Shown: one piece after another, positions 40,831 to 56,819 of the stretch | How positions within the stretch are numbered: position 1 is the first letter of the stretch | How the letters are laid out: every line of letters begins with the position of its first letter | Assembly (NCBI GenBank): GCA_902596065.1 | Contig: CACJSL010000001.1 | Location: forward strand, 48,782 to 112,781 | DNA from: an uncultured Alphaproteobacteria bacterium | Lineage (GTDB): Bacteria; Pseudomonadota; Alphaproteobacteria; HIMB59; GCA-002718135 | Length of the DNA stretch: 64,000 nt | Direction: 5' to 3' | Translations under genes and position numbers: made by a program | Notes under the pieces: generated by a model | Database searches by the model: none | Seen by the model: the letters and a program-made list of their open reading frames with translations, nothing else | Told to the model about the DNA's origin: nothing

Positions 40831-41724
40831 TTACTTCATTCCAGTCAGAGTAATTCCTTCGATAAATCTTTTTTGTGCTATTATGAAAGCAACAATTAAG
40901 GGAACCGTGACAGTAACAATTGATGCCATCATTGGTCCAAATTCATCACTATCTATTCCTCCTCTAAATTCTCTAATTCCAAGAGGGGGAGTAAATAGAT
41001 CTCTATTTCCAGTTATAACCATTCTTGGCCAGAAATAATCATTCCAGTGTGCTACAACTGAGAATATTGCAAATGCAAGTAAAGCAGGTATTGCAGTTGG
41101 TAGCATGACTTTCCACACAATAGAATATTCTCCCATTCCATCCATTCTGGCGGCATCAATTAATTCATCTGGAACTGTCATAAAAAATTGTCGCATAAGA
41201 AAAATTCCAAATACAGATATTGTCCAGGGGAGTATTAAGGCGGAATAGGTATCAACTAGCCCGGCCTGGGCCAGCATTACATAAAGAGGAAGTGCAATGC
41301 CGTGCACTGGTATTAGAAGACAAAACAATACCATTGAAAATACAAATTCCCGTCCATAAAACCGGAGTTTTGCAAGCGCATAAGCACAAGGTAAGGCAAC
41401 AAGAACTTGAATTATAAAAATTGATAAAGTTACTATAACTCCATTCATTAAGTATCTAGGAATTGGAGCTTTCTCAAAAGCAAACCAGTAATTATAAATA
41501 TAAGGTTTTGTCGTACATGTTTCTTCGGAATAACCCGTTTTTACACAAACCGGAAATGTTTGAACTTCTTGTGCACCAATTAGCCCACCAGAAATCGATT
41601 GAATTTCTTGTTGAGATTTTAGTGACATTGAAACCATCATATAAAATGGCAGTAAAACAAGGATTGCACCAATTATTAAAATGCCGTGTTTCCAACTCTC
41701 ACCTATATACTGTTTAGCTTGCAT
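40831..41724 (-). CDS. CUT1-type ABC transporter permease (UgpE-like)
   Basis: EAA loop DELIDAARMDGMGEYSIVWKVMLP. Confidence 0.85.
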   Translation of the reverse strand: MQAKQYIGESWKHGILIIGAILVLLPFYMMVSMSLKSQQEIQSISGGLIGAQEVQTFPVCVKTGYSEETCTTKPYIYNYWFAFEKAPIPRYLMNGVIVTLSIFIIQVLVALPCAYALAKLRFYGREFVFSMVLFCLLIPVHGIALPLYVMLAQAGLVDTYSALILPWTISVFGIFLMRQFFMTVPDELIDAARMDGMGEYSIVWKVMLPTAIPALLAFAIFSVVAHWNDYFWPRMVITGNRDLFTPPLGIREFRGGIDSDEFGPMMASIVTVTVPLIVAFIIAQKRFIEGITLTGMK

Positions 41725-42680
41725 TAATAGTGAACCCTCTTCTCAATGATATACCTCTGAAAAAAAGTTAATATCAATATAAAGCCAATAAAAACAACAG
41801 TAATAGCTGCTCCAATACTCGTTAAGTTTTGTTGGATAGCTTTTTCAAAAATTGCATACATCATAACGTAGGTAGTTTTAGAGGGGCCGCCTTTAGTAAG
41901 TATTTCAATTGTATCAAAAACTTGAAATGTTCTGATTGTTGTAATTGTTACTACAAACAAAGTTGTGGGTCCAAGCATTGGCCAAGTTACAAGTTTAAAT
42001 TGCTCCCATGTTGATTTAGCGCCATCCATTTCTGCTGCTTGATATAGTTCACGAGGTATCCCTGTTAGGCCTGCTAAATACAAAACCATATTAAAACCAA
42101 ATGCTTGCCAAATTCCTATAAAACATATCGTCCAAATTGCTGTATTTTTTTGCTTTAGCCAATAAGGAAAATCCATATTATTTGCACATGCTACATGATA
42201 CCAGCTTTGTTGTGAATCTACCCATGGTAACCAATGAAAACCAAAAATAAACTCTCTTGCGCCTCCACAACCATTAGCTAAAAAACTATTCACTATACCG
42301 AGTGTTGGATGAAGAGTGAATTCCCATGCAATAGCCATAGCAAGAAGGGTCGCCATAACAGGAAGAAAGAAAATTGTTTTATAAATATCAGCTCCAAATC
42401 TAAGTGAATTTAAGAGCATTGCTGCACACAAACCAAGTACAACTGAAATAGGTACAACAACTATTACATAGGTTGCTGTGGCCCAAATCATTTTCACATA
42501 TGTTTTTCTTGAAAACATTTTTTCATAATTTTCAAGCCCTATCCATTCAAGAGATTTATTACCTAAATTATAATCAGTAAAAGAAATTCCCCCAGCAAGA
42601 AACAATGGAAAAATTAATATAATAATCATTAGTATTATTGCAGGTGCAATAAACCAAATATGTGCTTTGGAATTATGCAT
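41724..42680 (-). CDS. CUT1-type ABC transporter permease (UgpA-like)
   Basis: EAA loop ELYQAAEMDGAKSTWEQFKLVTWP. Confidence 0.85.
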   Translation of the reverse strand: MHNSKAHIWFIAPAIILMIIILIFPLFLAGGISFTDYNLGNKSLEWIGLENYEKMFSRKTYVKMIWATATYVIVVVPISVVLGLCAAMLLNSLRFGADIYKTIFFLPVMATLLAMAIAWEFTLHPTLGIVNSFLANGCGGAREFIFGFHWLPWVDSQQSWYHVACANNMDFPYWLKQKNTAIWTICFIGIWQAFGFNMVLYLAGLTGIPRELYQAAEMDGAKSTWEQFKLVTWPMLGPTTLFVVTITTIRTFQVFDTIEILTKGGPSKTTYVMMYAIFEKAIQQNLTSIGAAITVVFIGFILILTFFQRYIIEKRVHY

Positions 42681-43806
42681 TATTAAATTGAACCCTTTTA
42701 CCTTCTTGGTTAAACAATAGTGCTTTATTAGGAGCTCTTTTAATGTTTACTGTTGAACCATTAGAAATTTCATGTGTTAATTGAGGTATGCCTCTAACAA
42801 TAATTCTATTCATCCCATCTTCCGTATTTACATGAAAAAAAATATCTGATCCTAAATTTTCTCTGTAAGAAACTTTTGCACTAAAAGTATCTTCATCACT
42901 TTGATTGGAAATTTCTAAATGTTCAGGTCTAATACCAATATTTAACTCTAGATTTGTTTCTGAACTTTTTCTTTTTAAGTTTAGATTTAGTAAGTTTACA
43001 GTTCCGCTTGAATCTGATGAACCTTTAAAAATATTAATTTTAGGACTTCCAACGAATTGAGCCACACTTAGTGAGGAAGGATTATCATATACTTCTTGAG
43101 GAGTATCAAGTTGTAATAAATTTCCATCAATCATAACAGCCATACGAGAAGACATCGTTAATGCCTCCGCCTGATCATGAGTAACGTATACAAAAGTAGT
43201 TTTAAGTGAACTATGAAGTTCAGATAATTCGGAGCGCATATGAACTCTAAGCGCTGCATCTAAATTTGATAACGGTTCATCCATCAAAAAAGCAACAGGC
43301 TCTCTTACCATTGCCCTACCAAGAGCCACTCTTTGTCTTTGACCACCAGATAGTTGACCTGGTTTTCTATCAAGTAGTTCAGAGATTTTAAGTGTTTCAG
43401 AAGTTTTACTAACCAATTGATTTATAGATTCTGTTTTTTGTTTTTTATTCGGAGATAAATTTCCAATTAAAGGCAATCTTTCAAATGAATTGTAATCTCT
43501 AAGCCTTAAAGGAGTTTCTAAATTTCTTCTTACTGAAAGATGAGGATAGAGAGCGTAAGACTGAAACACCATTGCCAAGTCTCTTTCACTAGCTCTAATT
43601 TTATTTACGTTTTTATTATCAATTAAAACATCACCAGAAGTTTGTTGTTCAAGACCGGCTATAATTCGAAGTAAGGTAGATTTGCCACAACCAGATGGGC
43701 CAACTAATGTTAAAAATTCACCGTCTTTTATATCTACACTTAAATCTTTTAATACCTCTGTGGATCCAAATGATTTTGAAATATTTTTAAGTGATATTGT
43801 GCCCAC
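42673..43806 (-). CDS. ABC transporter ATP-binding protein (UgpC/MalK-like)
   Basis: GPSGCGKST, LSGGQRQRVALGRA, FLMDEP, C-terminal regulatory/TOBE domain. Confidence 0.9.
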   Translation of the reverse strand: MGTISLKNISKSFGSTEVLKDLSVDIKDGEFLTLVGPSGCGKSTLLRIIAGLEQQTSGDVLIDNKNVNKIRASERDLAMVFQSYALYPHLSVRRNLETPLRLRDYNSFERLPLIGNLSPNKKQKTESINQLVSKTSETLKISELLDRKPGQLSGGQRQRVALGRAMVREPVAFLMDEPLSNLDAALRVHMRSELSELHSSLKTTFVYVTHDQAEALTMSSRMAVMIDGNLLQLDTPQEVYDNPSSLSVAQFVGSPKINIFKGSSDSSGTVNLLNLNLKRKSSETNLELNIGIRPEHLEISNQSDEDTFSAKVSYRENLGSDIFFHVNTEDGMNRIIVRGIPQLTHEISNGSTVNIKRAPNKALLFNQEGKRVQFNNA

Positions 43807-43969: not shown

Positions 43970-45211
43970 GTGACTGAAAATTTATTAATTAACAATAGAG
44001 AATATCCAAGTATATTTTCAAAGACAGCTATAGTTATTTGTCTTGATGGAAGCCAAAAAGAATATCTTGAAGAGGCATCAAAATCAAATCTGACACCTAA
44101 TCTTGACTCATTAATTGCAAGTGGTCAAAATTTATTAGTTCACAGTGCTATACCTAGCTTCACAAATCCAAATAATATTTCAATTGTGACAGGGCAGCCT
44201 AGTTCTGTTCACGGAATATGTGGTAACTTTTTTTACACTCCTGAAACGGGTGAAGAAGTAATGATGAATGATCCAAAATATATGCGTGCTCCAACAATTT
44301 TTGAAAAATTTTATAATTCTGGCTCAAAAATCGCTCTTGTTACTGCAAAAGATAAACTTAGAACCCTTTTGGGAAATGGTTTAAGTTTTGATAATAATCG
44401 AGCAATATGTTTTTCTGCAGAAAAATCTGATCAGGCAACAAAAGAACTTAATGGTATAGAAAATGTTAATGACTGGTTAGGTATGCCGGTGCCAGAAGTG
44501 TACTCCGAAGGTCTTTCTGAGTTTGTCATGGCCGCTGGAGTAAAACTACTAAAGGAATTTAAACCAGACATTATGTATTTATCTACGACTGACTATATTC
44601 AACACAAGTATGCACCTGGAAATGAAATAGCAAATAAGTTCTATGCAATGTTTGATAAATATATTGGCCTTTTAAATAAAGAAGACGTATCAATGATAGT
44701 AACAGCTGATCATGGAATGAAATCTAAATCAAAAGAAGACGGTTCACCTAACGCGATATTTTTACAAGATTATCTTGATAAAAAATTTGAACCGAACTTA
44801 ACAAAAGTCATCTTACCAATCACAGATCCGTATGTAGTTCATCATGGATCATTAGGTTCATTTGCTACAATTTATCTTGAAGATAAAACTAAAGTCAACG
44901 ATGTTATTGAATCAATTAAAGCAATTAAAGATATAGAAGTAGTCTTAACTAAAGACGAAGGTTGCTCAACATATAATCTTCCTCCAGATAGAATGGGAGA
45001 TATAATATGCATGTCTTCTGAATTTATGACAATTGGATCCTCTTTAGATAAACATAATCTTTCTGGATTAAATGAGCCTTTGCGTTCCCATGGTGGTTTA
45101 CATGAGCGAGAAGTACCTTTTATTTCAAATTTAAAAATACAAAATTTAAATAATGAAAAACAGTTATATAATTATGATGCATTCTATTATGCAATCAATG
45201 GAGCTTTATGA
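43970..45211 (+). CDS. phnA: Phosphonoacetate hydrolase (alkaline phosphatase superfamily)
   Basis: [35 protein letters not shown] (Thr nucleophile region), [44 protein letters not shown]. These closely match what I recall of Pseudomonas fluorescens PhnA. GTG start. Confidence 0.9.
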
Positions 45212-46650
45212 TGGAAAAGAAAATTATTAATGAAGCTATGCGCATTGCTGGCAAAAAAGTAAATTTTGAAAAAACAATTGATGTTGAATATCCATTTACA
45301 GGAGAAGTAATTGGTACAGTTCCTGCAGGAAATGCTGAGCATGCAAAACAAGCTCTTGAAATTGCTGCAAACTATCAACCTAAGTTGACACGATATGAAA
45401 GACAAAAAATACTTCAAACCGCAGCTGAGGTACTTGTAAAAAGAAAAGAAGAGATTTCTGACATCATTACCTTAGAACTTGGAATTTCAAAACAAGACTC
45501 ATTGTATGAAGTAGGCAGAGCATTTGATGTTTTTTCTTTAACCGCACAACTTTGTATTCATGATGACGGAGAAATTTTTTCTTGTGATTTAACTCCACAC
45601 GGAAAAGCGAGAAAAATATTTACAATAAGAGAACCATTAACAGCAATTTCGGCAATTACACCATTTAATCACCCTTTAAATATGGTGGCACATAAAATTG
45701 CACCTTCAATTGCAACGAATAATTGTACTGTTTGTAAGCAGACTGAGTTAACTCCATTAACAGCAATGGTTCTTGCTGATGTTTTGTATGAAGCTGGTTT
45801 GCCGCCAGAAATGTTTTCTGTTGTTACAGGATGGCCGCAAGATATCGGCTCTGAAATGATAAAGAATCCAAATATTGATCTTATTACTTTTACTGGAAGT
45901 GTTGGTGTTGGAAAACTAATTGCTGAACAAGCAGGATACAAAAGAACTGTCCTTGAACTTGGTGGAAATGATCCTTTAATAGTTTTAAATGATTTAGATC
46001 CAGATGATTTAAAGAAAGCAGTTGAATTAGCAGTTACTGGAGCAACAAAAAATTCAGGACAACGATGTACAGCTGTTAAAAGAATACTTTTGCAAGAAAA
46101 AATTGCTGATCAGTTTGTTGAAATGGCTTTGGAAAGAGCAAAAAAAATTAAATTTGGTGATCCAATGAGTATGGAAACTGACTTAGGCACTGTTGTTAAT
46201 GCTCAAGCAGCGGAATTATTTGATAAAAGAGTTTCAATGGCAGAGGCAGATGGTGCAAAAATCTTATATCACCCTGGAAGAAAAGGTGCGTTATTGCCTC
46301 CTATAGTAATTGATAATGTTGATCCAAAAAGTGAACTTGTTCTTGAAGAAACATTTGGCCCAGTTATCCCTATTATTAGGGTTCCCAATGATGATGAATC
46401 GGTAATCAAGATTTCAAACTCAACTGCTTTTGGATTATCTTCAGGTGTATGCACCAATAATTTTATGAGAGCTAAAAAATATATTCAAGGTCTTAATGTT
46501 GGAACTGTAAATATCTGGGAAGTACCTGGTTACAGAATTGAAATGTCCCCTTTTGGAGGAATTAAAGATTCTGGCTTAGGCTACAAAGAAGGCGTAATAG
46601 AAGCGATGAAGAGCTTTACTAATGTAAAAACATTCTCACTTCCTTGGTAG
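45208..46650 (+). CDS. phnY: Phosphonoacetaldehyde dehydrogenase (ALDH superfamily)
   Basis: ELGGNDP catalytic Glu, GQRCTAVKR catalytic Cys; ATGA overlap with phnA. Confidence 0.8.
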
Positions 46651-46819: not shown

Positions 46820-48073
46820 ATGAGAAAATTAATTACAGGATTAGCAGCCGTATTAGCTTTTGGTTTCTATGGTTCTGTTAATTCAGCGAAGTCTATAGAA
46901 ATAGAAGTAGCTTATCCTTATTCAGGTTTATTTGATGTTACCTATCAAGCTATTATGCCTGAGTTTGAAAAAGCTCATCCAGATATTCAAGTAAAATTTA
47001 GAGCAACTTATGAAAACTATGAAGATGCTACTGCTACAATTTTAAGAGAAGCAACTTCTGGTAATCTACCAGATGTTACAATGCAGGGTCTTAACAGACA
47101 AGCTCCTCTAGTAGACAAAGGTATTGCAAAATCTTTAGAGCCATTTATTGCAAAAGAAGCTGATTTTGAAAAAGATGGTTATCATGCTGCAATGTTAAGT
47201 CTTTCAACATTTGGAGGAGAGGTTTATGGTTTGCCATTCTCTGTATCAACTCCTGTTGGATATTATAACATGGATTTATTAGCTGAAGCTGGCATAGACA
47301 GCATCCCAACTAACTGGGATGAAGTTATTGATGCTTGTGGAAAATTAGAGGCAGCTGGAAAAGGTACTTTATATTTTGGTTGGAACATTACAGGTAACTG
47401 GTTCCACCAAGCATTAATGCATACTCAAAATGTAAAAATTGTTGAAGATGGAAAAGTAAACTTAGGTGGAGACGCTGGTTTAGCAACATTACAACAAATG
47501 CACGATATTATGAGTGGATGTAACATGCCTAACTATTCAATTGCTGATGGTCAAGCTGCATTTAATGCAGGCACGATCGGTATGATGTTCTGGTCAACTT
47601 CAAGCTTAGGTTCAGTAAATGCTGCAAAAGCAGATTTCGTACTTAAGACAGCTCCATTCCCTGGAATGGCAGGTGTTAATAATGGAACCCCAGCAAGATT
47701 ACCAGCAGGTGGAAATGCAGCAATGTTAACTTCTACTTCTGATGATCCAGCAAGAGTAGACGCAGCATGGACATTCTTGAAGTTCATTACTTCTGGTATT
47801 GGAGCAGCATTAGTTGCTGAGACTACTGGTTATGTTCCACCAAACAAAGCAGCTAACGATTTATTAGGTGATTTCTATAGTGCAAATCCAAATAAACTTA
47901 CTGCGGTAGAACAGCTTCCACTCTTAGCAGACTGGTTTGCATATCCTGGTGAAAACGGACTAGCAATCACTCAAGTAATTTATGATTACACTGAAGAAAT
48001 TGCCACAGGAAGTGCTGATGATATGGCAGATCTTCAAGAAGAAATGATGGAAGAAATCAACGATCTTTTATAA
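46820..48073 (+). CDS. ABC transporter substrate-binding protein, family 1 (UgpB-like)
   Basis: Signal peptide, family 1 SBP architecture, strong SD GGAGGA. Likely partner of the permeases at 40831-43806. Confidence 0.85.
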   Translation: MRKLITGLAAVLAFGFYGSVNSAKSIEIEVAYPYSGLFDVTYQAIMPEFEKAHPDIQVKFRATYENYEDATATILREATSGNLPDVTMQGLNRQAPLVDKGIAKSLEPFIAKEADFEKDGYHAAMLSLSTFGGEVYGLPFSVSTPVGYYNMDLLAEAGIDSIPTNWDEVIDACGKLEAAGKGTLYFGWNITGNWFHQALMHTQNVKIVEDGKVNLGGDAGLATLQQMHDIMSGCNMPNYSIADGQAAFNAGTIGMMFWSTSSLGSVNAAKADFVLKTAPFPGMAGVNNGTPARLPAGGNAAMLTSTSDDPARVDAAWTFLKFITSGIGAALVAETTGYVPPNKAANDLLGDFYSANPNKLTAVEQLPLLADWFAYPGENGLAITQVIYDYTEEIATGSADDMADLQEEMMEEINDLL

Positions 48074-48103: not shown

Positions 48104-48135
48104 ACAGCGGCTTTATAAAAGCCGCTGTTTTATTT
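48104..48135 (+). terminator. Rho-independent terminator
   Basis: ACAGCGGCTTT-ATA-AAAGCCGCTGT 11-bp stem followed by TTTATTT. Confidence 0.8.
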
Positions 48136-48157: not shown

Positions 48158-49237
48158 ATGCCTCTAACTACAACTACAATAGGTGCTTATCCAAAACCTA
48201 AACAAACTCCAATTCAAGATTGGTTTTTAGGCACTAAATCTGAAGAAGAAAGAAAAGCTTCAAAAGGATTATTATCAAACTGGTCACCCGGTGCATATGA
48301 AAAAGCATTAGAGTCTGCTGGAGAAGAAGCGGAGAAATTATTTTTAGAAGCAATTAAAGAAGTTATTACTGATCAAGTAAATTCAGGCATTGATGTTCCA
48401 ACTGATGGAGAAGTACGAAGAGAAAGTTATGTTTTATATCAATGTCGTTTTTTAAATGGTGTAAGCTTTAAGGAAGTAACACATAGGTCAGTTAGACAAG
48501 GCGCGTTTGAAGCAGATCTTCCAACAATAGTAGCGCCTATTTCAAGTAAAGAAATTCGCTTGCATTTAGATTGGAAAAGCGCGCAACAATTTACAAAAAA
48601 TCCTGTAAAAATTACTCTACCAGGACCTATGACAATTACAGATTCAATTGCTAATAACTATTATGATGACATGAAAAAACTAGGTTTTGATCTAGCACTT
48701 GCTTTAAACAAAGAAGTGAAAGCGCTTGTAGATGCTGGGTGTAAATACATTCAAATTGATGAACCTGTATTTGCAAGAAAACCTGAAGAAGCAAATTCTT
48801 ATGGTATGGAAAATTTAGAAAGAATGATGCACGGGATTCCAAAAGAGGTACAAAGAGTGTGCCATATTTGTTGCGGCTATCCAAACTCTCTTGACTCCGA
48901 GGGTTACAAAAAAGCAGACTTAGATGCTTATGATAGGATTGCTACTTTAGTAGATGATTCTACGATTGATGAAGTGTCATTAGAAGACTCACATAGACAC
49001 AATGATTTAAATCTTTTAGAAAAATTTACTAAAACAAAAGTTATTTTTGGATTTATTGATATTGCCAAAAGCAGAATGGAGTCAGTAGAAGAAGTAAGAA
49101 GTCGTATGAAAGACTCTTTAGAACATATTGACGAACATAGATTGATAGCTGCTCCAGATTGTGGTTTAGGTTTCTTTACAAGAGAACAAGCTATTGAAAA
49201 AATGTCAATATTATCTAAGGCTGCAAAATCAATTTAG
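48158..49237 (+). CDS. Single-domain cobalamin-independent methionine synthase (MetE C-terminal)-like Zn enzyme
   Basis: TDGEVRRE, IQIDEP, H236-I-C238, E276 (SLEDSHR), C335 (APDCGLGF); SD AGGGAGA. Confidence 0.8.
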   Translation: MPLTTTTIGAYPKPKQTPIQDWFLGTKSEEERKASKGLLSNWSPGAYEKALESAGEEAEKLFLEAIKEVITDQVNSGIDVPTDGEVRRESYVLYQCRFLNGVSFKEVTHRSVRQGAFEADLPTIVAPISSKEIRLHLDWKSAQQFTKNPVKITLPGPMTITDSIANNYYDDMKKLGFDLALALNKEVKALVDAGCKYIQIDEPVFARKPEEANSYGMENLERMMHGIPKEVQRVCHICCGYPNSLDSEGYKKADLDAYDRIATLVDDSTIDEVSLEDSHRHNDLNLLEKFTKTKVIFGFIDIAKSRMESVEEVRSRMKDSLEHIDEHRLIAAPDCGLGFFTREQAIEKMSILSKAAKSI

Positions 49238-49241
49238 TAGA

Positions 49242-50354
49242 ATGTGGAATTATTATAATCCTGTTGATGTTGTTTTTGGTGAAAATAAATTTTCAGAGAT
49301 ACACAAAATATTAGAAAATAAAAAATACGTCGTTGTTACCCATCCTGAAGAAATTTTTAAAAAATATACTGATCAATTAAATACATCATCTAATCCTCCC
49401 CTTATGGTTATGACAGAAGTACAACCTAATCCAGATTATTTAGATATTCTTACTCTATTAAAAAATTTTGCTTCTATAGCAAAAGAAGTTGATCATGTAG
49501 TTGCTATAGGAGGTGGATCTGTTACCGATACAGCAAAAGCTTTAGCAGCATTTAAAGGCAATGAAAATCTTTTAACAGATTTTGTTCGCAATAAAAAAAC
49601 TCCTTATGTGGATGACCCTATAAGTATTATTGCTGTGCCTACAACTTCTGGAACATCAAGTGAATTAACTTGTTGGGCTACGATTTGGGATAAAGAAAAA
49701 AATGGAAAGCTATCTTTAGCACACAAGAGCCTTTATCCTTTAAAGGCAATTATAGATCCAGTTATCATGTTAGATAAACCCAAAGGATTAACAATTTCAA
49801 CAGGTCTTGATGCCCTTTCTCATTCAATGGAAAGTATTTGGAATATTAATGCAAACCCAGTTTCTGCTATGCATGGAATAGTGGGCTCTCAATTAATTAT
49901 TGAAAACCTTCCTTTATTAGCTAATGATTTAAAAAACATCACATTAAGAAGTAATGTTGCTCGCGCTTGCGTTCATGCGGGTTTAGCTTTTTCTAATACT
50001 AAGACAGCCATTGCACATAATATTTCTTATCCCATTACTCTTAATTATGGTATTCAACATGGAATTGCGTGTTCTTTTAGCTTGCCTATGATTTTAAGAA
50101 GTATGCTTGATATTAATGATGAAGCTGAAAATCGTTTAAAAATGATTTTTAATGATGATTTAATTAGTTCAGCAACAAAACTTGAATCAATTTTACGACA
50201 ATTAAATATTCCTCTTAATCTTAATGAATTAAAAATCAATAAAGACGAGTGGAATAAAATTGTTGGTGATGCATTTATGGGCGAAAGAGGTAAAAATTTT
50301 TTAGGTAATAAAAATGCTTTTGATAAAGCAGTTGATGAATCAAATTTTTTTTAA
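49242..50354 (+). CDS. Group III iron-containing alcohol dehydrogenase (phosphonoacetaldehyde reductase-like)
   Basis: GGGSVTDTAKA, DALSHSMES, AHNISYP motifs. ATG at 49242 lies 5 nt after the upstream stop; the track start at 49194 is TTG inside the upstream gene. Confidence 0.82.
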   Translation: MWNYYNPVDVVFGENKFSEIHKILENKKYVVVTHPEEIFKKYTDQLNTSSNPPLMVMTEVQPNPDYLDILTLLKNFASIAKEVDHVVAIGGGSVTDTAKALAAFKGNENLLTDFVRNKKTPYVDDPISIIAVPTTSGTSSELTCWATIWDKEKNGKLSLAHKSLYPLKAIIDPVIMLDKPKGLTISTGLDALSHSMESIWNINANPVSAMHGIVGSQLIIENLPLLANDLKNITLRSNVARACVHAGLAFSNTKTAIAHNISYPITLNYGIQHGIACSFSLPMILRSMLDINDEAENRLKMIFNDDLISSATKLESILRQLNIPLNLNELKINKDEWNKIVGDAFMGERGKNFLGNKNAFDKAVDESNFF

Positions 50355-50355
50355 A

Positions 50356-51168
50356 TTAAAATTTTTTAGTTGTCTCAAACCAATTGATATTATCTTTTAA
50401 AAAATCTTCAGTATGGACTACTAGTGAGTTTTTATTAATTAATATTACATTATAATTTGGATCAGTATTGGCCGTTCCCAATCTATAGTTTTTTGAAAAA
50501 TTGGGCACCAATGGAGACCAAGTACTTCTCGGCGCACTAAAAGGTATGTTTAAATAATTTCCTGATACTGTAATATGCTGATGACCAAAAAAAATATGTT
50601 GAATAATTTTTTTAAATTTAATTAATATATCTTTAAACTCATCTCCTTGTTGTAAACCAATATAATCACTAGTGGGCTCTCCTAGGGGTAAAGGATTATG
50701 ATGCATAAAAAGATAAACTTGTTTATTATTATCTGAAGCATTTTCTAGAGTATTTATAAGCCAACTTTGTCTGTTGTTGCAAAAATGCCCTTGATGGGTA
50801 TTTGATAAATTTGTATCTAAAAAAATAAAACGTTTATCTTCAATGTCTTCAAAGTATTGAATAAAACCATTTTCATCTAAAGGTATTTTTGTAAATATTT
50901 GTTTAAACTGTTCTCTATCATCATGATTGCCCATAAGCAATTTTGGAAACAAATGTTTTGGTATTTTGGAATTTAATAATATTTCATTTAATTTATTATA
51001 AGATTCACTATCCCCGTCATGCGTTAAATCTCCTGATATAACAAATAGCTTTGAGTCTAAATGATTGTTGCAAATATGTTGAAGTGCTAGTGAAAATCTC
51101 TCTTTAGCATCATGTTCAAAAAGTTTATCTGGAGAAATATGAGGATCTGATAAGTGGATTATTTTCAT
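50356..51168 (-). CDS. Class III metallophosphodiesterase (GpdQ/CpdA family)
   Basis: HLSDPH, SGDLTHDG, GNHDD, FMHHNPLPLG, FGHQH. These five metallophosphoesterase blocks are spaced as in GpdQ. Confidence 0.85.
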   Translation of the reverse strand: MKIIHLSDPHISPDKLFEHDAKERFSLALQHICNNHLDSKLFVISGDLTHDGDSESYNKLNEILLNSKIPKHLFPKLLMGNHDDREQFKQIFTKIPLDENGFIQYFEDIEDKRFIFLDTNLSNTHQGHFCNNRQSWLINTLENASDNNKQVYLFMHHNPLPLGEPTSDYIGLQQGDEFKDILIKFKKIIQHIFFGHQHITVSGNYLNIPFSAPRSTWSPLVPNFSKNYRLGTANTDPNYNVILINKNSLVVHTEDFLKDNINWFETTKKF

Positions 51169-51194: not shown

Positions 51195-51824
51195 TTAAAG
51201 TTTTGTTTTAAAAAAAAGATACTTATTAAATTCTTTTTTTAAATCGATGCTAACACGGGCATGTACTTTCCCTTGTTTGCCCATAAAAGAACTTTTCTTT
51301 TGAACAGGGAAAACACCCTCATGCCAAATATTGGGATGAATATATAAACCTTTTGATCCATCAAAATAAAATGCCTTAAAATCTTCTGCTTGAATATCAT
51401 CGCCAGGTAACGCAAGAGGTGAAATAAATGGACCTCTTTCAGAGGGAAAAAATAACTGCCCTCCATCTGGGTGGTAATTAACATGCCATATATAAATCTC
51501 TTCTGGCTCACTATATTCTGTATTGTTTTCAATATTTTCTGGAGGGGCAGAATAGCCTAAAATATATTTTCCATCTATTTCATACTCACTATTATGTTGC
51601 ACAGCATTATTTTGCCCATAAAGAGTTGAGCCTTCCCACCAAGTATCAAACGCACCTTTGGTATAGCCCGCTTCATTACCTGTTCCTTCATCAATTTCTC
51701 GCCAACCTTGTTTTGGCCAAGTTACAATTTCAACATCACTGTTTTCAAATGAGTCTATTAAATAACCATATCCTTTAAGAGTTTCATTTGTAGCTTTGAC
51801 TAAGGGGATTTCAATGGCCTGCAT
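51195..51824 (-). CDS. Ureidoglycolate lyase (AllA) family-like cupin, extended form
   Basis: N-terminal LKGYGYLID, central YHPDGGQLFFP and C-terminal GLYIHPNIWHEGVFP align with blocks I recall from AllA (FSAYGDVIE, RHPLGTQAFIP, VNYHRNVWHHPLF). Confidence 0.55.
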   Translation of the reverse strand: MQAIEIPLVKATNETLKGYGYLIDSFENSDVEIVTWPKQGWREIDEGTGNEAGYTKGAFDTWWEGSTLYGQNNAVQHNSEYEIDGKYILGYSAPPENIENNTEYSEPEEIYIWHVNYHPDGGQLFFPSERGPFISPLALPGDDIQAEDFKAFYFDGSKGLYIHPNIWHEGVFPVQKKSSFMGKQGKVHARVSIDLKKEFNKYLFFKTKL

Positions 51825-51835
51825 AAATATTACTT

Positions 51836-52936
51836 TTAATTAATTTTAATTTGTAATTCATTTACAACTTCTTTTATGGCCTTAATGGTATCATGCATAT
51901 CATTGTCATCTAAATTTCCAATACATCCAATACGAAAAGTATCAGCAACAGTAAGCTTGCCTGGATAAATCAAAAAATCTTTATTACTCAAAGCATCATA
52001 AAATTCTTCAAAATTAAAATTTGAATTTTGAGGCTGCATAAATGTTATAATTATTGGCGCTTGTAATTCATTTGACAGTAATTGTTTAAAACCTATTTCT
52101 TTCATACCATCACAAATTATTTTGCAATTATTTGAATACCTTTTATGCCTTCCTTCAACCCCCCCTTCTTTTGAATGTTCATTTATAGCTTGTTGAAAGG
52201 CAGCTAAAACATGTGTGGGAGGAGTAAAACGCCACTGTTTATTTTTTTCCATCGCCTGCCACTGGTCATATAGATCTAAACTTAAAGAATGTGCATTTCC
52301 TTTTGCTTTTTCGATAATATTATTTTTAACTAAAATAAAGCCTACTCCTGGAACTCCTTCTAAACATTTATTGGAAGAAGCAGCAACAGCATCAAATGCA
52401 ATTGTTTTACTACTAAGAGGAAGAGCGCCAAAAGCACTCATAGCATCAATAAATAATGATAAATTTTTTTTTGCTACTAAGTCAGATATTTTTTGAATAG
52501 GATTTAATATTCCTGAGGTTGTTTCGCAGTAAACAGCAAACACATGAGTTAAATCAGTATTTGAATCTATGATGTTTTCAATTTCATCTAAATCATGTTG
52601 TTCATGTTCCGCAACTTCATAAGCAATACATTCTCTACCAACATAGTCACACATTTTTTTCATACGGTGACCATATGCTCCATTAATTAATATTAATATT
52701 TTTGCATCTTTAGATGTGAGAGAGCCAACCATTGATTCTACTGCAAATGTTCCGCTACCTTGCATTGGAACACATTGGTAATTATTTTCACCATCAATAA
52801 GTTTTACAAGAGACTCACGAATAGAATGGTTCAGATCAATAAATTTTTGATCTCGCGAACCCCAATCATGAAGCATGGCTTCTTTGGTTGTCATGGAGGT
52901 AGTAAGTGGTCCAGGTGTAAGAAGTTTTTTATCCAT
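51836..52936 (-). CDS. phnW: 2-aminoethylphosphonate:pyruvate aminotransferase
   Basis: LLTPGPLTTS N-terminus, class V aminotransferase fold, PLP Lys in SSNKCLEGVPGVGF. Confidence 0.9.
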   Translation of the reverse strand: MDKKLLTPGPLTTSMTTKEAMLHDWGSRDQKFIDLNHSIRESLVKLIDGENNYQCVPMQGSGTFAVESMVGSLTSKDAKILILINGAYGHRMKKMCDYVGRECIAYEVAEHEQHDLDEIENIIDSNTDLTHVFAVYCETTSGILNPIQKISDLVAKKNLSLFIDAMSAFGALPLSSKTIAFDAVAASSNKCLEGVPGVGFILVKNNIIEKAKGNAHSLSLDLYDQWQAMEKNKQWRFTPPTHVLAAFQQAINEHSKEGGVEGRHKRYSNNCKIICDGMKEIGFKQLLSNELQAPIIITFMQPQNSNFNFEEFYDALSNKDFLIYPGKLTVADTFRIGCIGNLDDNDMHDTIKAIKEVVNELQIKIN

Positions 52937-53034
52937 ATTCTTAATTGAGTTAACTATTTAATTCTTAATTAGCTCACTAGCAATTAAATAAAAAATTGAT
53001 TTGCAATTTTTCTTGAAAGTTGTATTTTTTCTAA

Positions 53035-53607
53035 ATGGAAAATATTGTAGATCAACTTCTAAATCTTTTAGTTACAAAGGGGGGAGATATACAATATGGA
53101 AATGAAGATGTTACTCAATTAGAGCATGCCTTACAGTGCGCAGAATTAGCTGAACAACACAATTTACCAGGCCCAACAATAGCAGCTGCTTTATTACATG
53201 ATATTGGCCATCTTTTATATGAAGACAAGGATCCAATTCATGAAGGGAAAGATGGACGTCATGAAAACTTAGGAGCTGATTATTTATCGCAATACTTTGA
53301 TACTGATGTGACACAGCCTATTCGAGCTCATGTAGATTCCAAAAGATATTTAGCAACAGTTGAAGAAGGTTATTATGATCTTCTCTCAGAGGCCTCCAAA
53401 CTTTCACTCGCTGTTCAGGGCGGTCCATTTACCAAAGAGGAGGCAAAAAAATTTATAGATAAACCATTTATGAAGGAAGCTGTAGAAATGAGGCGTTTCG
53501 ATGATATGGCAAAAATTTTAAATAAAAAAACCCCTGATATAAATTATTTTAGACCATATGTAGAAAAAGCACAAAATTCATTTAATTTAAAAAACATTAA
53601 GAATTAA
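53035..53607 (+). CDS. phnZ: PhnZ-type HD-domain di-iron oxygenase (phosphonate-degradation-associated HD protein)
   Basis: LEHALQC, AALLHDIGH, RHENLGADYL, RAHVDSKRYL, RRFDDMAK give the H/HD/H/H/D ligand pattern of the PhnZ/MIOX-like family. Confidence 0.75.
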   Translation: MENIVDQLLNLLVTKGGDIQYGNEDVTQLEHALQCAELAEQHNLPGPTIAAALLHDIGHLLYEDKDPIHEGKDGRHENLGADYLSQYFDTDVTQPIRAHVDSKRYLATVEEGYYDLLSEASKLSLAVQGGPFTKEEAKKFIDKPFMKEAVEMRRFDDMAKILNKKTPDINYFRPYVEKAQNSFNLKNIKN

Positions 53608-54493: not shown

Positions 54494-55537
54494 TTAGTTT
54501 TTTGGCTCAGTTTTGCCATCATATCTTTTTTTCCATTCAGCAACTATACGATCTTTGTTTGCCGCTGCCCAAACAAAATCATTATCAATTAATTTTGCTT
54601 GCACTTCGTCATAAAAATCAGGAAGTTCTGGATCTTTAGTTACTTTAGAAGGATCAGCAATAATTGATTGTCTTTGCCCGAATAATTTCATTCCTTCTCC
54701 CAAAGTCCAATCCATTAATGTTTTTGCATCTTCAAGATTATCTGTTCCTTCCATTATAGCCACTACTTGCATTTCCCAACCAATTCCTTCTTCAGGAATA
54801 ATCATATCAATTGGAGCACCAGCTTTAATAACTTTAATTGCTCTACCAGGCCATGAGATACCAATTGCAAATTCACCAGCCCCTGCTTGCTTACAAGGTT
54901 TAGAACCAGAGTGAGTATACACACCTATATTTTCATGTAGTGCATCCATATACTCCCACGCTTTATCTTCACCCCATATTTGCATCCAACTAGATGCATC
55001 CAAGAAACCAGTTCCAGAGGAAGCTGGATTTGGCATAGAAATATGACCTTTATAAATTGGATCAGTTAACTCTGCCCAAGTTGTTGGTTTAGGTAAACCA
55101 AGTTTTTCTGCCTCAATGCGGTTCCAGCAAATACAACCTGCCCAGCCATAATTTCCAACCCAAGTTACAGGTGCAGATTTATCAACATATCGTTGATCAA
55201 TCGCATCCATACCTTTTGGAGTATATTCAACAAACATACCTTCTGCTTCCATATTTAAAGCAACAGTTGCAGCCATCTCAAATAAGAAATCAGCTTGTGG
55301 GTTATCTTTTTCTGCCATCATTTTTGCTGCCATTGTTCCAGTTGATTCACGAACAACGTTAACTTTTATATCGGGATGATCTTTTTGAAATTCATCCATG
55401 TAATATTTAAGATTATCTGCATCAGTACTAGAATATACTAAAAGCTCACCAGCATTAGCTAGATAGCTAAATGTAGATAAAGATATAAAAATTAAAACAG
55501 CACTTAGTGTGTTTAAAATTTTTTTTATTAAAAACAT
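54494..55537 (-). CDS. Putative 2-aminoethylphosphonate ABC transporter substrate-binding protein (PhnS2/AepX-like)
   Basis: Signal peptide, Fe3+/2-AEP-type SBP fold; divergent from the ATPase/permease genes. Confidence 0.78.
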   Translation of the reverse strand: MFLIKKILNTLSAVLIFISLSTFSYLANAGELLVYSSTDADNLKYYMDEFQKDHPDIKVNVVRESTGTMAAKMMAEKDNPQADFLFEMAATVALNMEAEGMFVEYTPKGMDAIDQRYVDKSAPVTWVGNYGWAGCICWNRIEAEKLGLPKPTTWAELTDPIYKGHISMPNPASSGTGFLDASSWMQIWGEDKAWEYMDALHENIGVYTHSGSKPCKQAGAGEFAIGISWPGRAIKVIKAGAPIDMIIPEEGIGWEMQVVAIMEGTDNLEDAKTLMDWTLGEGMKLFGQRQSIIADPSKVTKDPELPDFYDEVQAKLIDNDFVWAAANKDRIVAEWKKRYDGKTEPKN

Positions 55538-55736
55538 AAAATTACCTCCAAATTTAAATGTTATCTTTTATTTAAAAAATGTGATTAAATTTAAACATAT
55601 ATATGACCTATTTGTTAACAATTAATTACAAATTTTGATATTATTTTGAGTATAAGAAGATATAGTATTTTTCAATTTGGCCAAAAACTAATATATTTTA
55701 CTAATACATTTGATTAACTAAAATTTATAAAATTTT

Positions 55737-56816
55737 ATGACTGAACAAAAAAACAATACTTATCTTGCAGTTAATAATTTATCTAAATCTTTTGGTAATT
55801 TTGAAGCCATTAAAAATATAGGAATAGATATAAAAGAAGGTGAGTTTGTTTGTTTTCTTGGACCTTCTGGTTGCGGTAAAACAACTTTACTGCGATGTAT
55901 AGCAGGATTGGAAACACAAACTTCTGGATCTGTTATTCAAAAAGATATTGATATTTCACATGAACCTCCATCCAATAGAGATTTTGGAATTGTCTTTCAG
56001 TCTTATGCATTATTTCCAAACCTTTCTGTTTTTTCTAACATTTCATATGGATTAATAAATAATAAATGGAAAAAAGATGACATCAAAAAAAGAGTAGATG
56101 AATTGCTTGATCTGGTTAATCTTACAGAGCATGCATCAAAGTATCCAAGTCAATTATCTGGTGGGGAACAACAACGAGTAGCTTTAGCTAGAGCTCTTGC
56201 TACATCACCTGGATTATTATTGCTTGATGAGCCTCTTTCCGCACTAGATGCAAAAGTAAGAGTTTTTCTAAGAAAACAAATAAGAGATTTGCAAAGAAAA
56301 CTTGGAGTAACTACTATTATGGTTACTCATGACCAAGAGGAAGCCCAAACAATGGCGGATAGAATATTTGTTATGAATGAGGGTGAAATTATTCAGTCTG
56401 GAACACCTAGTGAAATTTATACAAAAGCTAATTCACCTTTTATTGCTTCTTTTATTGGAAGTATGAATTTTATACCTGCAACAATTGATAGTTCTAAAAA
56501 AGTGAAGTGTAACAATATTGAAATAAATTGTGATACAAGCTCTTTTACAGAAAATGATTCTGTGCAATTAGCTGTAAGACCTGAAGAAATTTATTTTAAA
56601 CAAGAAAACCAAGATGATAATGTTATATCTGCTACAATAAAAGAAATAGAATTTTTGGGTTCTTTTCAACGAGTCTATTTTGAAGCAAAGAGTTTTAGTA
56701 ATGAGTTGATCATAGTAGATGTCCCAAGTGCAAACGCTAGAAAAATTAAATTAATTATTGACGAAGAAATAAATTTGTATTTTTCCAAACAAGATGCACG
56801 AATTTATTCAACTTAA
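55737..56816 (+). CDS. Putative 2-aminoethylphosphonate ABC transporter ATP-binding protein
   Basis: GPSGCGKTT, LSGGEQQRVALARA, LLLDEP, TOBE-like C-terminus. Confidence 0.85.
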   Translation: MTEQKNNTYLAVNNLSKSFGNFEAIKNIGIDIKEGEFVCFLGPSGCGKTTLLRCIAGLETQTSGSVIQKDIDISHEPPSNRDFGIVFQSYALFPNLSVFSNISYGLINNKWKKDDIKKRVDELLDLVNLTEHASKYPSQLSGGEQQRVALARALATSPGLLLLDEPLSALDAKVRVFLRKQIRDLQRKLGVTTIMVTHDQEEAQTMADRIFVMNEGEIIQSGTPSEIYTKANSPFIASFIGSMNFIPATIDSSKKVKCNNIEINCDTSSFTENDSVQLAVRPEEIYFKQENQDDNVISATIKEIEFLGSFQRVYFEAKSFSNELIIVDVPSANARKIKLIIDEEINLYFSKQDARIYST

Positions 56817-56819
56817 ATT

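What the first reader, a model, noticed from the sequence alone, without database searches (positions are those of the whole stretch)
48158..50354. MetE-like Zn enzyme plus iron alcohol dehydrogenase bicistron embedded among phosphonate genes
The MetE-like protein (48158-49237) is a 359-aa single-domain homologue of the catalytic half of cobalamin-independent methionine synthase.
- It keeps the substrate blocks TDGEVRRE and IQIDEP.
- It keeps the full Zn ligand set: H236 (CAT 48863-48865), C238 (TGT 48869-48871), E276 in SLEDSHR, and C335 in APDCGLGF.

Five nt after its stop (TAG 49235-49237, ATG 49242) begins a group III iron ADH (GGGSVTDTAKA). Its family and size match the phosphonoacetaldehyde reductases of phosphonate biosynthesis (PhpC/FomC type). 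The pair follows a terminator and has a strong SD.

Inference: run in reverse, the ADH would oxidise 2-hydroxyethylphosphonate to phosphonoacetaldehyde and feed PhnY/PhnA. I do not know that catabolic entry point to be described. The MetE-like partner could act on a methylated or thiol-linked phosphonate. It could equally be a folate-independent core methionine synthase.
Basis: partly seen in the sequence, partly recalled or inferred. Interest (0 to 1): 0.85.

Follow-up and report, generated by a model that had tools for sequence, protein, structure and literature searches.

The report
SAR11 methionine-synthase-like enzyme in phosphonate operon
In an ocean bacterium (SAR11), a gene for a small zinc enzyme resembling methionine synthase lies four bases from a gene for an alcohol dehydrogenase that feeds 2-hydroxyethylphosphonate into a known phosphorus-releasing pathway; the dehydrogenase step was published in 2026, but what the methionine-synthase-like partner uses as its substrate is still unknown.

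Summary
Both ORFs, all quoted motifs, the four Zn-ligand codons, the 4-nt gap, the upstream terminator and the SD are as described.

**ADH (49242-50354).** It is a PhpC-type (TIGR03405-like) dehydrogenase in a PhnA-PhnY operon.

**MetE-like protein (48158-49237).**
- It is a folate-domain-less "core" MetE, closest to MesD (PDB 3RPD, TM 0.82-0.86).
- It keeps MesD's homocysteine/methionine-contact residues E85, D201 and Y241.
- It fails the MesD tests: the score is half the cut-off and no MesX is nearby.
- It belongs to a distinct clade, usually the last gene of a LysR-flanked UgpB-type ABC importer operon.
- That clade recurs beside two unrelated classes of phosphonate-associated ADH, PhnA/PhnY and a GpdQ-like phosphodiesterase.

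**Best reading (inference).** It is a homocysteine S-methyltransferase. Its methyl donor would be an imported methylated organophosphonate, which it unmasks to HEP while making methionine. SAR11 is reported to lack MetE and MetH. The donor is unknown.

The parts
40831..43806 (-). UgpE-, UgpA- and UgpC-like ABC permeases and ATPase (40831-41724, 41724-42680, 42673-43806), transcribed divergently from phnA
   Evidence: NCBIfam best hits are UgpE, UgpA and UgpC, all below their cut-offs. The genes are conserved next to the module in all SAR11 loci with enough flank, and orthologs (57-93% identical to the L085 reference proteins) flank the MetE-like gene in other lineages.
43970..45211 (+). PhnA, phosphonoacetate hydrolase
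   Evidence: TIGR02335 at 467 bits, above the 407.55 cut-off.
45208..46650 (+). PhnY, phosphonoacetaldehyde dehydrogenase
   Evidence: TIGR03250 at 788 bits, above the 635.65 cut-off.
46820..48073 (+). UgpB-like periplasmic substrate-binding protein (SBP_bac_1), ligand unknown
   Evidence: PF01547 and PF13416. UgpB model at 63 bits, far below its cut-off. PDB relatives are sugar and G3P binders at 67 bits or less. It lies directly upstream of the MetE-like gene in most clade A loci.
48104..48128 (+). Intrinsic-terminator-like hairpin between the SBP gene and the MetE-like gene, probably a partial terminator
   Evidence: 11-bp stem with 6 G-C pairs, followed by TTTATTT. The GCGGC..GCCGC core is present in 59 of 75 related loci.
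48158..49237 (+). MetE-like single-domain Zn enzyme (core MetE, MesD-related clade A). Zn ligands H236, C238, E276, C335. Homocysteine-contact residues E85, D201, Y241
   Evidence: PF01717 at 121 bits. 3RPD at 156 bits. AF2 model with pLDDT 82, TM 0.82-0.86 to 3RPD. Family alignments.
49242..50354 (+). PhpC-type group III alcohol dehydrogenase, probable 2-hydroxyethylphosphonate dehydrogenase. GGGS at residue 90; metal ligands D190, H194, H245, H259
   Evidence: PF00465 and PF25137. TIGR03405 at 377 bits over 354 of 355 model positions, against a 423.7 cut-off. Motif positions. It follows the MetE-like gene after 4-5 nt in 72 of 73 genomes.
50356..51168 (-). SpdA/GpdQ-like metallophosphoesterase (phosphodiesterase or phosphonate-monoesterase candidate), convergent with the ADH
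   Evidence: PF00149. SpdA model at 183 bits, below the 400 cut-off. The closest PDB entries are the 'phosphohydrolase' structures 2ZO9/2DXL/3D03 at 62 bits; from my own knowledge these are Enterobacter aerogenes GpdQ. Homologs recur beside clade A MetE-like genes and beside the orthologous transporter.
51195..53607 (.). Neighbouring AEP branch that joins the same pathway at phosphonoacetaldehyde: ureidoglycolate-lyase-like cupin (51195-51824, -), PhnW (51836-52936, -), and a PhnZ/TmpB-like HD oxygenase (53035-53607, +)
   Evidence: NCBIfam results. The genes are conserved in the SAR11 Ia-type loci.

Best explanation
The bicistron is an accessory module of a phosphonate-scavenging island in SAR11.

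Step 1 (family and context shown; activity inferred from a characterised homolog). The ADH is a PhpC-type 2-hydroxyethylphosphonate (HEP) dehydrogenase. It oxidises HEP to phosphonoacetaldehyde. PhnY oxidises that to phosphonoacetate, and PhnA cleaves it to acetate and phosphate.

Step 2 (fold, Zn site and contact residues shown; reaction inferred). The MetE-like protein is a folate-independent, single-barrel, Zn-dependent thiol alkyltransferase related to MesD. It binds homocysteine as MetE and MesD do and converts it to methionine.

Step 3 (inferred from gene context only). Its methyl donor is not a folate, a corrinoid protein or a MesX product. It is a methylated organophosphorus solute brought in by the linked UgpB-type ABC importer. 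On chemical grounds the simplest candidate is a methyl ester of HEP, because a phosphonate oxygen is a workable leaving group for SN2 attack by a Zn-thiolate. Demethylation would unmask HEP for the ADH and save the methyl group as methionine. The GpdQ-like phosphoesterase would be a hydrolytic alternative for other esters.
For: ADH:
- TIGR03405 at 377 bits, with the next family at 151 bits.
- All four metal ligands and the GGGS motif are present.
- PhnA and PhnY lie upstream in 66 of 66 genomes with enough flank.
- A PhpC of this family oxidises HEP and yields Pi when coupled to PhnX (PMC13576164).

MetE-like protein, structure and residues:
- PF01717. Best solved relative is MesD 3RPD by sequence and by fold.
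- The Zn tetrad plus E85, D201 and Y241 correspond to 3RPD E73, D188 and Y226, which contact selenomethionine. They are invariant across the family.
- R97, R207, H279, R280 and R342 are conserved in this family but are E, V, N, S and H in MesD. This is compatible with an anionic donor.

MetE-like protein, context:
- It is the terminal gene of LysR-flanked UgpC-A-E-SBP operons in at least 8 unrelated lineages with GC 0.37-0.70.
- It lies next to a TIGR03405-type Fe-ADH in SAR11 and about 6 kb from one in L081.
- It lies next to a TIGR03366-type Zn-ADH ('phosphonate catabolism associated') in L083/84, L086 and L104, and in the same cluster in L098 and L087. This is displacement between non-homologous ADHs.
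- PhnA and/or PhnY lie within 10 kb in four separate arrangements: two SAR11-type clades, L094 and L104.
- In orthologous transporter operons the terminal gene is the GpdQ-like phosphoesterase alone, the phosphoesterase plus the MetE-like gene, or the MetE-like gene alone.

No corrinoid-protein gene or DUF1852 was recorded within 10 kb in the Pfam-annotated loci.
Against: - No donor has been identified, and no O-methyl-HEP pool is documented in the papers I could read.
- Three lineages (Magnetovibrio-like L063, L088-90, L102/103) carry a 72-73% identical clade A gene beside gabD and glutathione reductase, with no transporter or phosphonate gene.
- SBP orthologs at 64-69% identity occur without any MetE-like gene and with unrelated enzymes. 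The importer is therefore not specific to this enzyme.
- Characterised HEP clusters work without a MetE-like gene; it is not mentioned in PMC13576164.
- Both ADH types beside MetE-like genes score just under their curated cut-offs (377 vs 423.7 and 295 vs 328), so a shifted substrate is possible.
- The terminator between the SBP gene and the MetE-like gene leaves the transcriptional link untested.
- A10 replaces the Ser that contacts the homocysteine carboxylate in MetE and MesD.
Confidence: 0.4

Rival explanations
1. The MetE-like protein is simply a stand-alone core methionine synthase, a MesD-like back-up route using a generic intracellular methyl donor. Its position in the island reflects co-regulation or hitch-hiking, not shared chemistry.
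For: - The homocysteine and Zn residues are intact.
- SAR11 is reported to lack MetE, MetH and MtgBCDE (PMC12478193), so any methionine synthase would be useful.
- Clade A genes sit in housekeeping contexts in Magnetovibrio-like genomes.
Against: - The terminal position in a specific importer operon recurs across distant lineages, as does pairing with two unrelated phosphonate-type ADHs and with PhnA/PhnY.
- MesX, which MesD requires, is absent from every annotated neighbourhood.
- Mausz et al. report a core-MetE homolog in Phaeobacter inhibens that does not rescue methionine auxotrophy. Whether that homolog belongs to this clade was not tested.
Confidence: 0.2
2. The donor is an N-methylated compound, in betaine-homocysteine-methyltransferase-like chemistry. 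Candidates are N-methyl-, N,N-dimethyl- or N,N,N-trimethyl-2-aminoethylphosphonate, or phosphocholine, glycerophosphocholine or choline released by the GpdQ-like diesterase.
For: - UgpB-type binding proteins and GpdQ-type diesterases handle glycerophosphodiesters (established knowledge).
- PhnW and a PhnZ/TmpB-like oxygenase are in the island.
- The sister clade B sits in PotD-type amine-importer operons with aminotransferases. Once it lies beside an MttB-like methyltransferase and a TmpB-like oxygenase, and once beside PhnW.
Against: - Demethylating these donors gives no alcohol, so the tight and repeated link to an ADH is unexplained.
- The GC 0.34 clade, L094/98 and L104 have ADH and/or PhnY/PhnA, but no PhnW was detected in the available flanks.
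- PhnA and PhnY pass phosphonate-specific cut-offs, which argues against a choline-to-dimethylglycine route.
Confidence: 0.2
3. It is not a methyltransferase. It is a thiol-dependent alkyl or epoxide transferase, in the manner of epoxyalkane:CoM transferase (another MetE-fold Zn enzyme). It would open or displace a reactive phosphonate such as an epoxy- or halo-alkylphosphonate, and the ADH would then oxidise the resulting hydroxy-thioether.
For: - The Zn-thiolate MetE fold is shared.
- In the epoxyalkane pathway a dehydrogenase follows the transferase (established knowledge).
Against: - The alpha-amino- and carboxylate-contact residues of homocysteine/methionine are invariant.
- The pyridine-nucleotide-disulfide oxidoreductase next to the gene in Magnetovibrio-like loci is an ordinary glutathione reductase (668 > 606 bits), not a 2-ketopropyl-CoM carboxylase analogue.
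- The downstream enzymes are PhnY and PhnA, which need phosphonoacetaldehyde.
Confidence: 0.05

Closest known systems
MesD/MesX core methionine synthase (Price et al. 2021; PDB 3RPD)
   Same: - Single (beta-alpha)8 barrel with no folate-binding N-terminal domain.
- The Zn tetrad, plus the Glu, Asp and MesD-specific Tyr that contact (seleno)methionine.
- Found in aerobic bacteria.
- Physiological methyl donor unknown.
- Best sequence match (156 bits) and best fold match (TM 0.82-0.86).
   Different: - Only 29% identity.
- Scores 195 bits against the NF006589 cut-off of 392.
- No MesX (DUF1852) neighbour.
- Has a roughly 20-residue N-terminal insertion (G37-L38-L39..W42).
- R97, R207, H279, R280 and R342 stand where MesD has E, V, N, S and H.
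- Encoded in importer and phosphonate operons rather than with MesX.
Canonical MetE (5-methyltetrahydropteroyltriglutamate-homocysteine methyltransferase)
   Same: Catalytic C-terminal barrel, Zn ligands, and homocysteine-contact Glu and Asp.
   Different: Lacks the N-terminal barrel that holds the folate tail. It scores 92 bits against the TIGR01371 cut-off of 930. The database label 'MetE' is therefore an over-annotation.
Degradative PhpC (Paraburkholderia fungorum) and PbfG HEP dehydrogenases (Piazza et al. 2026)
   Same: The window ADH is of the PhpC/TIGR03405 type and is clustered with phnY-phnA, as in the published HEP-degradation clusters. PbfG is a pf00107 enzyme, and TIGR03366-like Zn-ADHs, which also hit pf00107, replace the Fe-ADH beside MetE-like genes in other lineages.
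   Different: - The published clusters are not reported to contain a MetE-like gene.
- The SAR11 ADH scores under the TIGR03405 trusted cut-off.
- No SAR11 enzyme has been assayed.
Betaine-homocysteine S-methyltransferase (BHMT) and MmuM
   Same: Zn-activated homocysteine is methylated directly by a small methylated metabolite, coupling catabolism of that metabolite to methionine synthesis.
   Different: Unrelated Pfam family (PF02574, from my own knowledge); no such hit here. The donor here is unknown and probably anionic.
Ancillary 'phosphonate breakdown factors' PbfA-D (Peracchi group)
   Same: The concept: an extra enzyme in a hydrolytic phosphonate cluster that converts a decorated phosphonate into a core pathway intermediate.
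   Different: Those are PLP or FAD enzymes acting on AEP derivatives. This would be a Zn alkyltransferase feeding the HEP branch.

Membership tests
PF01717 / MetE-UROD-fold Zn thiol alkyltransferases | Profile match above the gathering score, and a (beta-alpha)8 barrel | tested here: met
   PF01717 at 121 bits against a cut-off of 21. AF2 model with pLDDT 82. The top 32 Foldseek hits are all MetE-family methionine-synthase entries (one of them listed only as a methyltransferase), followed by UROD.
PF01717 / MetE-UROD-fold Zn thiol alkyltransferases | Zn ligand tetrad His-x-Cys ... Glu ... Cys | tested here: met
   H236, C238, E276 and C335 align to the 3RPD ligands. They are invariant in 12 of 12 aligned homologs, and at least 95% conserved in each of the 24 clade A and 52 clade B sequences.
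Canonical MetE | N-terminal folate-binding barrel (PF08267) and the TIGR01371 equivalog score | tested here: not met
   359 aa with a single domain. No PF08267 hit. TIGR01371 at 92 bits against 929.95.
MesD core methionine synthase | Sequence score at family level (NF006589 cut-off; Price et al. used at least 390 bits to ACIAD3523) | tested here: not met
   NF006589 at 194.8 bits against 392. 29% identity to 3RPD. That NF006589 is the MesD-type model is my assumption.
MesD core methionine synthase | Adjacent MesX (DUF1852, PF08908), required for activity | tested here: not met
   The neighbours are the SBP and the ADH. No PF08908 was recorded within 10 kb in the annotated loci L081-L092. The rest of the genome was not searched.
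MesD core methionine synthase | Homocysteine/methionine-contact residues (3RPD Ser22, Glu73, Asp188, Tyr226) | tested here: met
   E85, D201 and Y241 are conserved. The Ser position is A10; I assume the backbone contact would be retained, which was not tested.
PhpC-type HEP dehydrogenase / phosphonoacetaldehyde reductase (EC 1.1.1.309; TIGR03405) | Group III ADH fold with NAD motif and four metal ligands | tested here: met
   PF00465 and PF25137. GGGS at residue 90; D190, H194, H245, H259.
PhpC-type HEP dehydrogenase / phosphonoacetaldehyde reductase (EC 1.1.1.309; TIGR03405) | Score at or above the curated TIGR03405 cut-off | tested here: inconclusive
   377.2 bits against 423.7, full-length, and more than 220 bits above the next family. 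The shortfall could reflect SAR11 sequence divergence, but a shifted specificity is not excluded.
PhpC-type HEP dehydrogenase / phosphonoacetaldehyde reductase (EC 1.1.1.309; TIGR03405) | Degradative context: clustered with phnX or phnY-phnA | tested here: met
   PhnA-PhnY-SBP-MetE-like-ADH in 66 of 66 genomes with enough flank. No pepM or aepY was seen among the genes annotated in window 24.8-60.1 kb.
PhpC-type HEP dehydrogenase / phosphonoacetaldehyde reductase (EC 1.1.1.309; TIGR03405) | NAD-dependent oxidation of HEP to phosphonoacetaldehyde | not testable with these tools
   Needs an enzyme assay. Shown only for the P. fungorum homolog.

The most novel reading that the evidence does not exclude
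The MetE-like enzyme is a phosph(on)ate methyl-ester:homocysteine S-methyltransferase. That would be a previously unknown way to de-esterify organophosphorus compounds: C-O cleavage by a Zn-thiolate, which keeps the methyl group as methionine. It would imply three things. O-methylated phosphonates (for example methyl-HEP) are a real, bioavailable pool of marine dissolved organic phosphorus. Some SAR11, thought to have no MetE or MetH, gain a methionine synthase linked to phosphorus scavenging. The sister clade in amine-importer operons does the same for other imported methylated solutes.
Probability: 0.2. Interest if true: 0.85.

Novelty: new variant of a known kind. Interest (0 to 1): 0.6.

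Why it matters
SAR11 is the most abundant heterotroph in the surface ocean. This exact protein sequence is recorded on 417 contigs.

**The ADH half.** It places SAR11 among the organisms that can mineralise 2-HEP by the hydrolytic route. 2-HEP, with methylphosphonate, accounts for up to about 20% of the phosphorus in high-molecular-weight marine DOM (PMC9381506). This extends the 2026 biochemical finding to a globally important lineage, but it is not new in kind.

**The MetE-like half.** This is the open question.
- Core-MetE homologs in aerobic marine bacteria are explicitly flagged as of unknown function (PMC12478193).
- The donor of the related MesD is also unknown.
- The context found here (importer, two ADH classes, PhnA/PhnY) gives a short list of candidate donors that can be tested at the bench.
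- If the donor is a methylated organophosphonate, the enzyme would link the marine phosphorus, sulfur and one-carbon cycles and reveal an unrecognised class of DOP.

Tried and rejected
- **Pho-box search.** TGTCAT-N5-TGTCA with up to 2 mismatches gave 21 hits against 21.7 expected, none in the relevant intergenic regions. No regulatory inference was drawn.
- **Sigma-70 promoter scan.** Fewer hits than in shuffles, and nothing between the terminator and ATG 48158. I cannot say whether the pair has its own promoter.
- **First clade split.** Splitting the clades at 58% identity misplaced Ugp-linked members. I replaced it with presence or absence of the G37-L38-L39..W42 insertion.
- **Epoxyalkane-pathway analogy.** Suggested by a disulfide oxidoreductase next to the gene in Magnetovibrio-like loci. 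Rejected: that gene is glutathione reductase and its neighbour is succinate-semialdehyde dehydrogenase.
- **L092 ADHs.** Both are generic (AdhP-like; TIGR03405 only 170 bits), so that locus is not counted as phosphonate-type ADH evidence.
- **Importer specificity.** I hoped the importer would be specific to the MetE-like substrate. SBP orthologs occur with a phosphoesterase alone, or with an aminotransferase, ADH and isomerase.
- **Supplements.** The supplementary tables of Piazza et al. are not held, so I could not compare with PbfG or PhpC accessions.
- **DhpI paper.** The DhpI (phosphonate O-methyltransferase) paper is not held. My recollection that DhpI homologs are common in marine metagenomes is unverified and is not used as evidence.
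- **Literature searches.** No paper linking a MetE-like enzyme to phosphonates was found.
Full report
**1. Observation**

The window has 30% GC. Related loci identify it as SAR11/Pelagibacterales.

- The two ORFs are at 48158-49237 (359 aa) and 49242-50354 (370 aa).
- Four intergenic bases separate the stop from ATG 49242.
- An 11-bp terminator-like hairpin lies at 48104-48128. An AGGGAG Shine-Dalgarno sequence lies 8 nt before ATG 48158.
- The ADH has no Shine-Dalgarno sequence of its own, which suggests translational coupling.

The surrounding genes are as follows.

| Coordinates | Strand | Gene |
|---|---|---|
| 40831-43806 | - | UgpE/A/C-like ABC genes |
| 43970-45211 | + | PhnA |
| 45208-46650 | + | PhnY |
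| 46820-48073 | + | UgpB-like binding protein |
| 48158-50354 | + | the MetE-like/ADH pair |
| 50356-51168 | - | SpdA/GpdQ-like metallophosphoesterase |
| 51195-51824 | - | ureidoglycolate-lyase-like cupin |
| 51836-52936 | - | PhnW |
| 53035-53607 | + | PhnZ/TmpB-like HD oxygenase |
| 54494-58523 | both | PhnS2T2U2 AEP-type transporter |

PhnA, PhnY and PhnW pass their curated equivalog cut-offs.

**2. The ADH**

- Its best model is TIGR03405, the phosphonate-associated Fe-ADH now labelled PsrA. It scores 377 bits over 354 of 355 positions. The cut-off is 423.7, and the next family scores 151 bits.
- The NAD motif (GGGS at residue 90) and metal ligands D190, H194, H245 and H259 are present.
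- Piazza et al. 2026 (PMC13576164) showed that a PhpC-type enzyme from Paraburkholderia fungorum oxidises HEP to phosphonoacetaldehyde. It yields phosphate when coupled to PhnX. According to that paper, the B. cenocepacia homolog PsrA is highly similar to this enzyme.
- They showed the same for an unrelated pf00107 enzyme, PbfG. Such genes sit with phnX or phnY-phnA, often without phnW.
- Lockwood et al. 2022 had already found about half of phpC genes unlinked to biosynthesis genes. Piazza et al. credit them with suggesting a catabolic role.

The SAR11 gene is a new, unassayed member of the family.

**3. The MetE-like protein: what it is**

- Pfam PF01717 scores 121 bits.
- All NCBIfam methionine-synthase models score far below their cut-offs. 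The best are NF003317 and NF006589 at 195 bits against 406 and 392. Canonical MetE (TIGR01371) scores 92 bits against 930.
- The best solved relative is 3RPD at 156 bits. Price et al. 2021 identify 3RPD as MesD from Shewanella with bound selenomethionine.
- An AlphaFold model (pLDDT 82) matches 3RPD with TM 0.82-0.86 at 29% identity. MetE catalytic domains come next, then UROD.
- The Zn tetrad aligns with that of 3RPD. So do E85, D201 and Y241, which correspond to 3RPD E73, D188 and Y226. [quoted passage not shown]
- The Ser position is A10.

The protein is not MesD. Its score is half the cut-off. MesX (DUF1852), which MesD needs, is neither adjacent here nor recorded within 10 kb in nine Pfam-annotated neighbourhoods.

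**4. Family structure**

The 110 full-length homologs from genomes and metagenomes split into two clades.

- Clade A carries an N-terminal insertion (G37-L38-L39..W42). It is 53-100% identical to the window protein.
- Clade B lacks the insertion and is 47-57% identical.
- Both clades share the catalytic residues.
- Both also share R97, R207, H279, R280 and R342, where MesD has E, V, N, S and H.
- The few clade-A-specific positions include Q95 (H in clade B) and S163 (T in clade B).

**5. Context of clade A**

*SAR11-type genomes.*
- 73 of the 80 species-level genomes retrieved carry MetE-like followed by the Fe-ADH. The gap is 4 nt in 59, 5 nt in 13 and 12 nt in 1.
- PhnA and PhnY lie upstream in 66 of 66 genomes with enough flank.
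- This holds in two clades, at 81-96% and 72% identity to the window protein.

*Other lineages.*
- The commonest arrangement is LysR, then a divergent UgpC-UgpA-UgpE-SBP-MetE-like operon. It occurs in L085, L086, L087, L091, L093-098 and L105, spanning GC 0.37-0.70.
- Hyphomicrobiales and Methyloligellaceae insert a phosphoesterase before the MetE-like gene (L064, L069, L080, L101).
- A TIGR03366-like Zn-ADH ('putative phosphonate catabolism associated alcohol dehydrogenase', 295 bits against 328) is adjacent in L083/84, L086 and L104. It lies in the same cluster in L098 and L087.
- PhnY and PhnA lie convergent to the MetE-like gene in L094. PhnA lies beside it in L104.
- A TRAP transporter replaces the ABC system in L065/81/82 and L092. 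L081 also has a TIGR03405 ADH (421 bits) with a PhnD-type transporter about 6 kb away.
- Pi-transport genes (PHO4/PhoU, Na/Pi-PhoU) flank L085 and L087.

*Exceptions.*
- Magnetovibrio-like genomes carry the gene next to succinate-semialdehyde dehydrogenase and glutathione reductase.

The signal is therefore this: one MetE-like clade is repeatedly joined to an organic-anion importer, and in several independent arrangements to the HEP-to-phosphonoacetate enzymes. Two non-homologous ADH classes fill the same slot.

**6. Context of clade B and of the importer**

- Clade B genes end PotD-type ABC operons. These have MocR-type regulators, class III aminotransferases, alanine dehydrogenase, an arginase-family enzyme and an aldehyde dehydrogenase.
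- One clade B gene is next to PhnW (L134).
- Another is followed by an MttB-like methyltransferase and faces a TmpB-like oxygenase plus the same cupin family seen in the window (L118).
- The wider family therefore looks like transporter-linked homocysteine alkyltransferases.
- Orthologs of the window's binding protein (64-69% identity) in Phaeobacter and other Paracoccaceae sit in the same LysR|UgpCAE-SBP cassette.
- There the cassette is followed by the SpdA/GpdQ-like phosphoesterase alone (L173/174, L179). Alternatively it is followed by a GABA-transaminase-like enzyme, a class-III-like ADH and a hydroxypyruvate-isomerase-like enzyme (L175-178).
- The cassette thus carries a variable terminal enzyme. 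This weakens any claim that the importer is specific to the MetE-like substrate.
- It does fit the phosphoesterase and the MetE-like enzyme being alternative ways to unmask an imported ester.

**7. Mechanism**

*Shown.* The fold, the Zn site, the conserved methionine/homocysteine contacts, and the absence of a folate domain.

*Not observed.* No MesX or corrinoid-protein gene was recorded in the annotated neighbourhoods.

*Inferred.* The enzyme methylates homocysteine with a methyl group from the imported solute. Where the ADH, PhnY and PhnA are present without PhnW, the demethylated product should be HEP or a close analogue.
- A phosphonate methyl ester is the chemically simplest donor. A phosphonate oxygen is a reasonable leaving group for thiolate SN2 attack, and the conserved extra Arg and His residues could hold the anion.
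- I found no documentation of such esters in seawater, so this specific donor is a guess (about 0.2).
- The broader statement, a homocysteine S-alkyltransferase functionally tied to organophosphonate uptake and catabolism, I hold at about 0.6-0.7.
- The full three-step model I hold at 0.4.

**8. Rivals**

- A plain back-up methionine synthase (0.2).
- An N-methyl donor such as N-methylated AEPs or choline derivatives (0.2). This leaves the ADH link unexplained.
- An epoxide or alkyl transferase like EaCoMT (0.05).

**9. Novelty and score**

- The ADH half is already known in kind.
- The MetE-like half is a distinct, abundant and uncharacterised clade of core MetE with a new, testable context.
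- Mausz et al. 2025 state that SAR11 lack MetE, MetH and MtgBCDE. They also state that core-MetE homologs in aerobic marine bacteria are of questionable function.
- Overall: a new variant of a known kind, interest 0.6.

Noticed in passing
window 51195-51824 (-) and 53035-53607 (+); L118 4843-5451 and 4192-4815: A ureidoglycolate-lyase-like cupin (PF04115, far below all curated cut-offs) accompanies the PhnZ/TmpB-like HD oxygenase in the SAR11 loci. A 50%-identical homolog lies directly upstream of a TmpB-like HD oxygenase in an unrelated metagenome contig. No PhnY*/TmpA-type 2OG dioxygenase was seen beside the HD enzyme in the window. The cupin may therefore be its missing partner.
   Followed up: partly
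L111-L172, e.g. L146 3507-11056, L166 2098-17855, L151 3216-16343: A sister clade of the MetE-like family (no N-terminal insertion, same catalytic and basic residues) is the last gene of PotD-type ABC importer operons. These carry MocR-type regulators, class III aminotransferases, alanine dehydrogenase and an arginase-family enzyme. This suggests a second, amine-linked substrate class for the same chemistry.
   Followed up: partly
L118 1436-4108: A clade B MetE-like gene is followed after 15 nt by an MttB-superfamily (trimethylamine-methyltransferase-like) gene of 514 aa. No corrinoid-protein gene is visible on the 5.5-kb contig.
   Followed up: no
L173 6821-12136, L179 4798-10204, L175 6876-14559: The LysR|UgpC-A-E-SBP cassette orthologous to the window's importer (SBP 64-69% identical) is widespread in Paracoccaceae, including Phaeobacter italicus. 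Its terminal enzymes vary: a SpdA/GpdQ-like phosphoesterase, or an aminotransferase plus a Zn-ADH plus an isomerase-like TIM barrel. The ligand is unknown.
   Followed up: partly
window 58548-59075 (+): A 175-aa ORF carries a Cys-based phosphatase signature (HCMGGKGRTG). It has no NCBIfam hit at E <= 1e-10. It is conserved (55-58% identity) at the edge of the phosphonate island in the SAR11 loci, next to a PiT-type permease (best NCBIfam hit is the sulfate permease CysP at 85 bits, well below its cut-off).
   Followed up: no
window 48104-48128: The strong hairpin terminator after the binding-protein gene keeps its GCGGC..GCCGC core in 59 of 75 related loci. This pattern would let the binding-protein message exceed that of the downstream enzymes, but read-through has not been tested.
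   Followed up: partly
window 24822-30989: A DUF4856 protein, a fatty-acid-hydroxylase-family protein, and a second SBP_bac_6-type ABC system (binding protein, fused permease, ATPase) lie upstream of the island. Their function was not examined.
   Followed up: no
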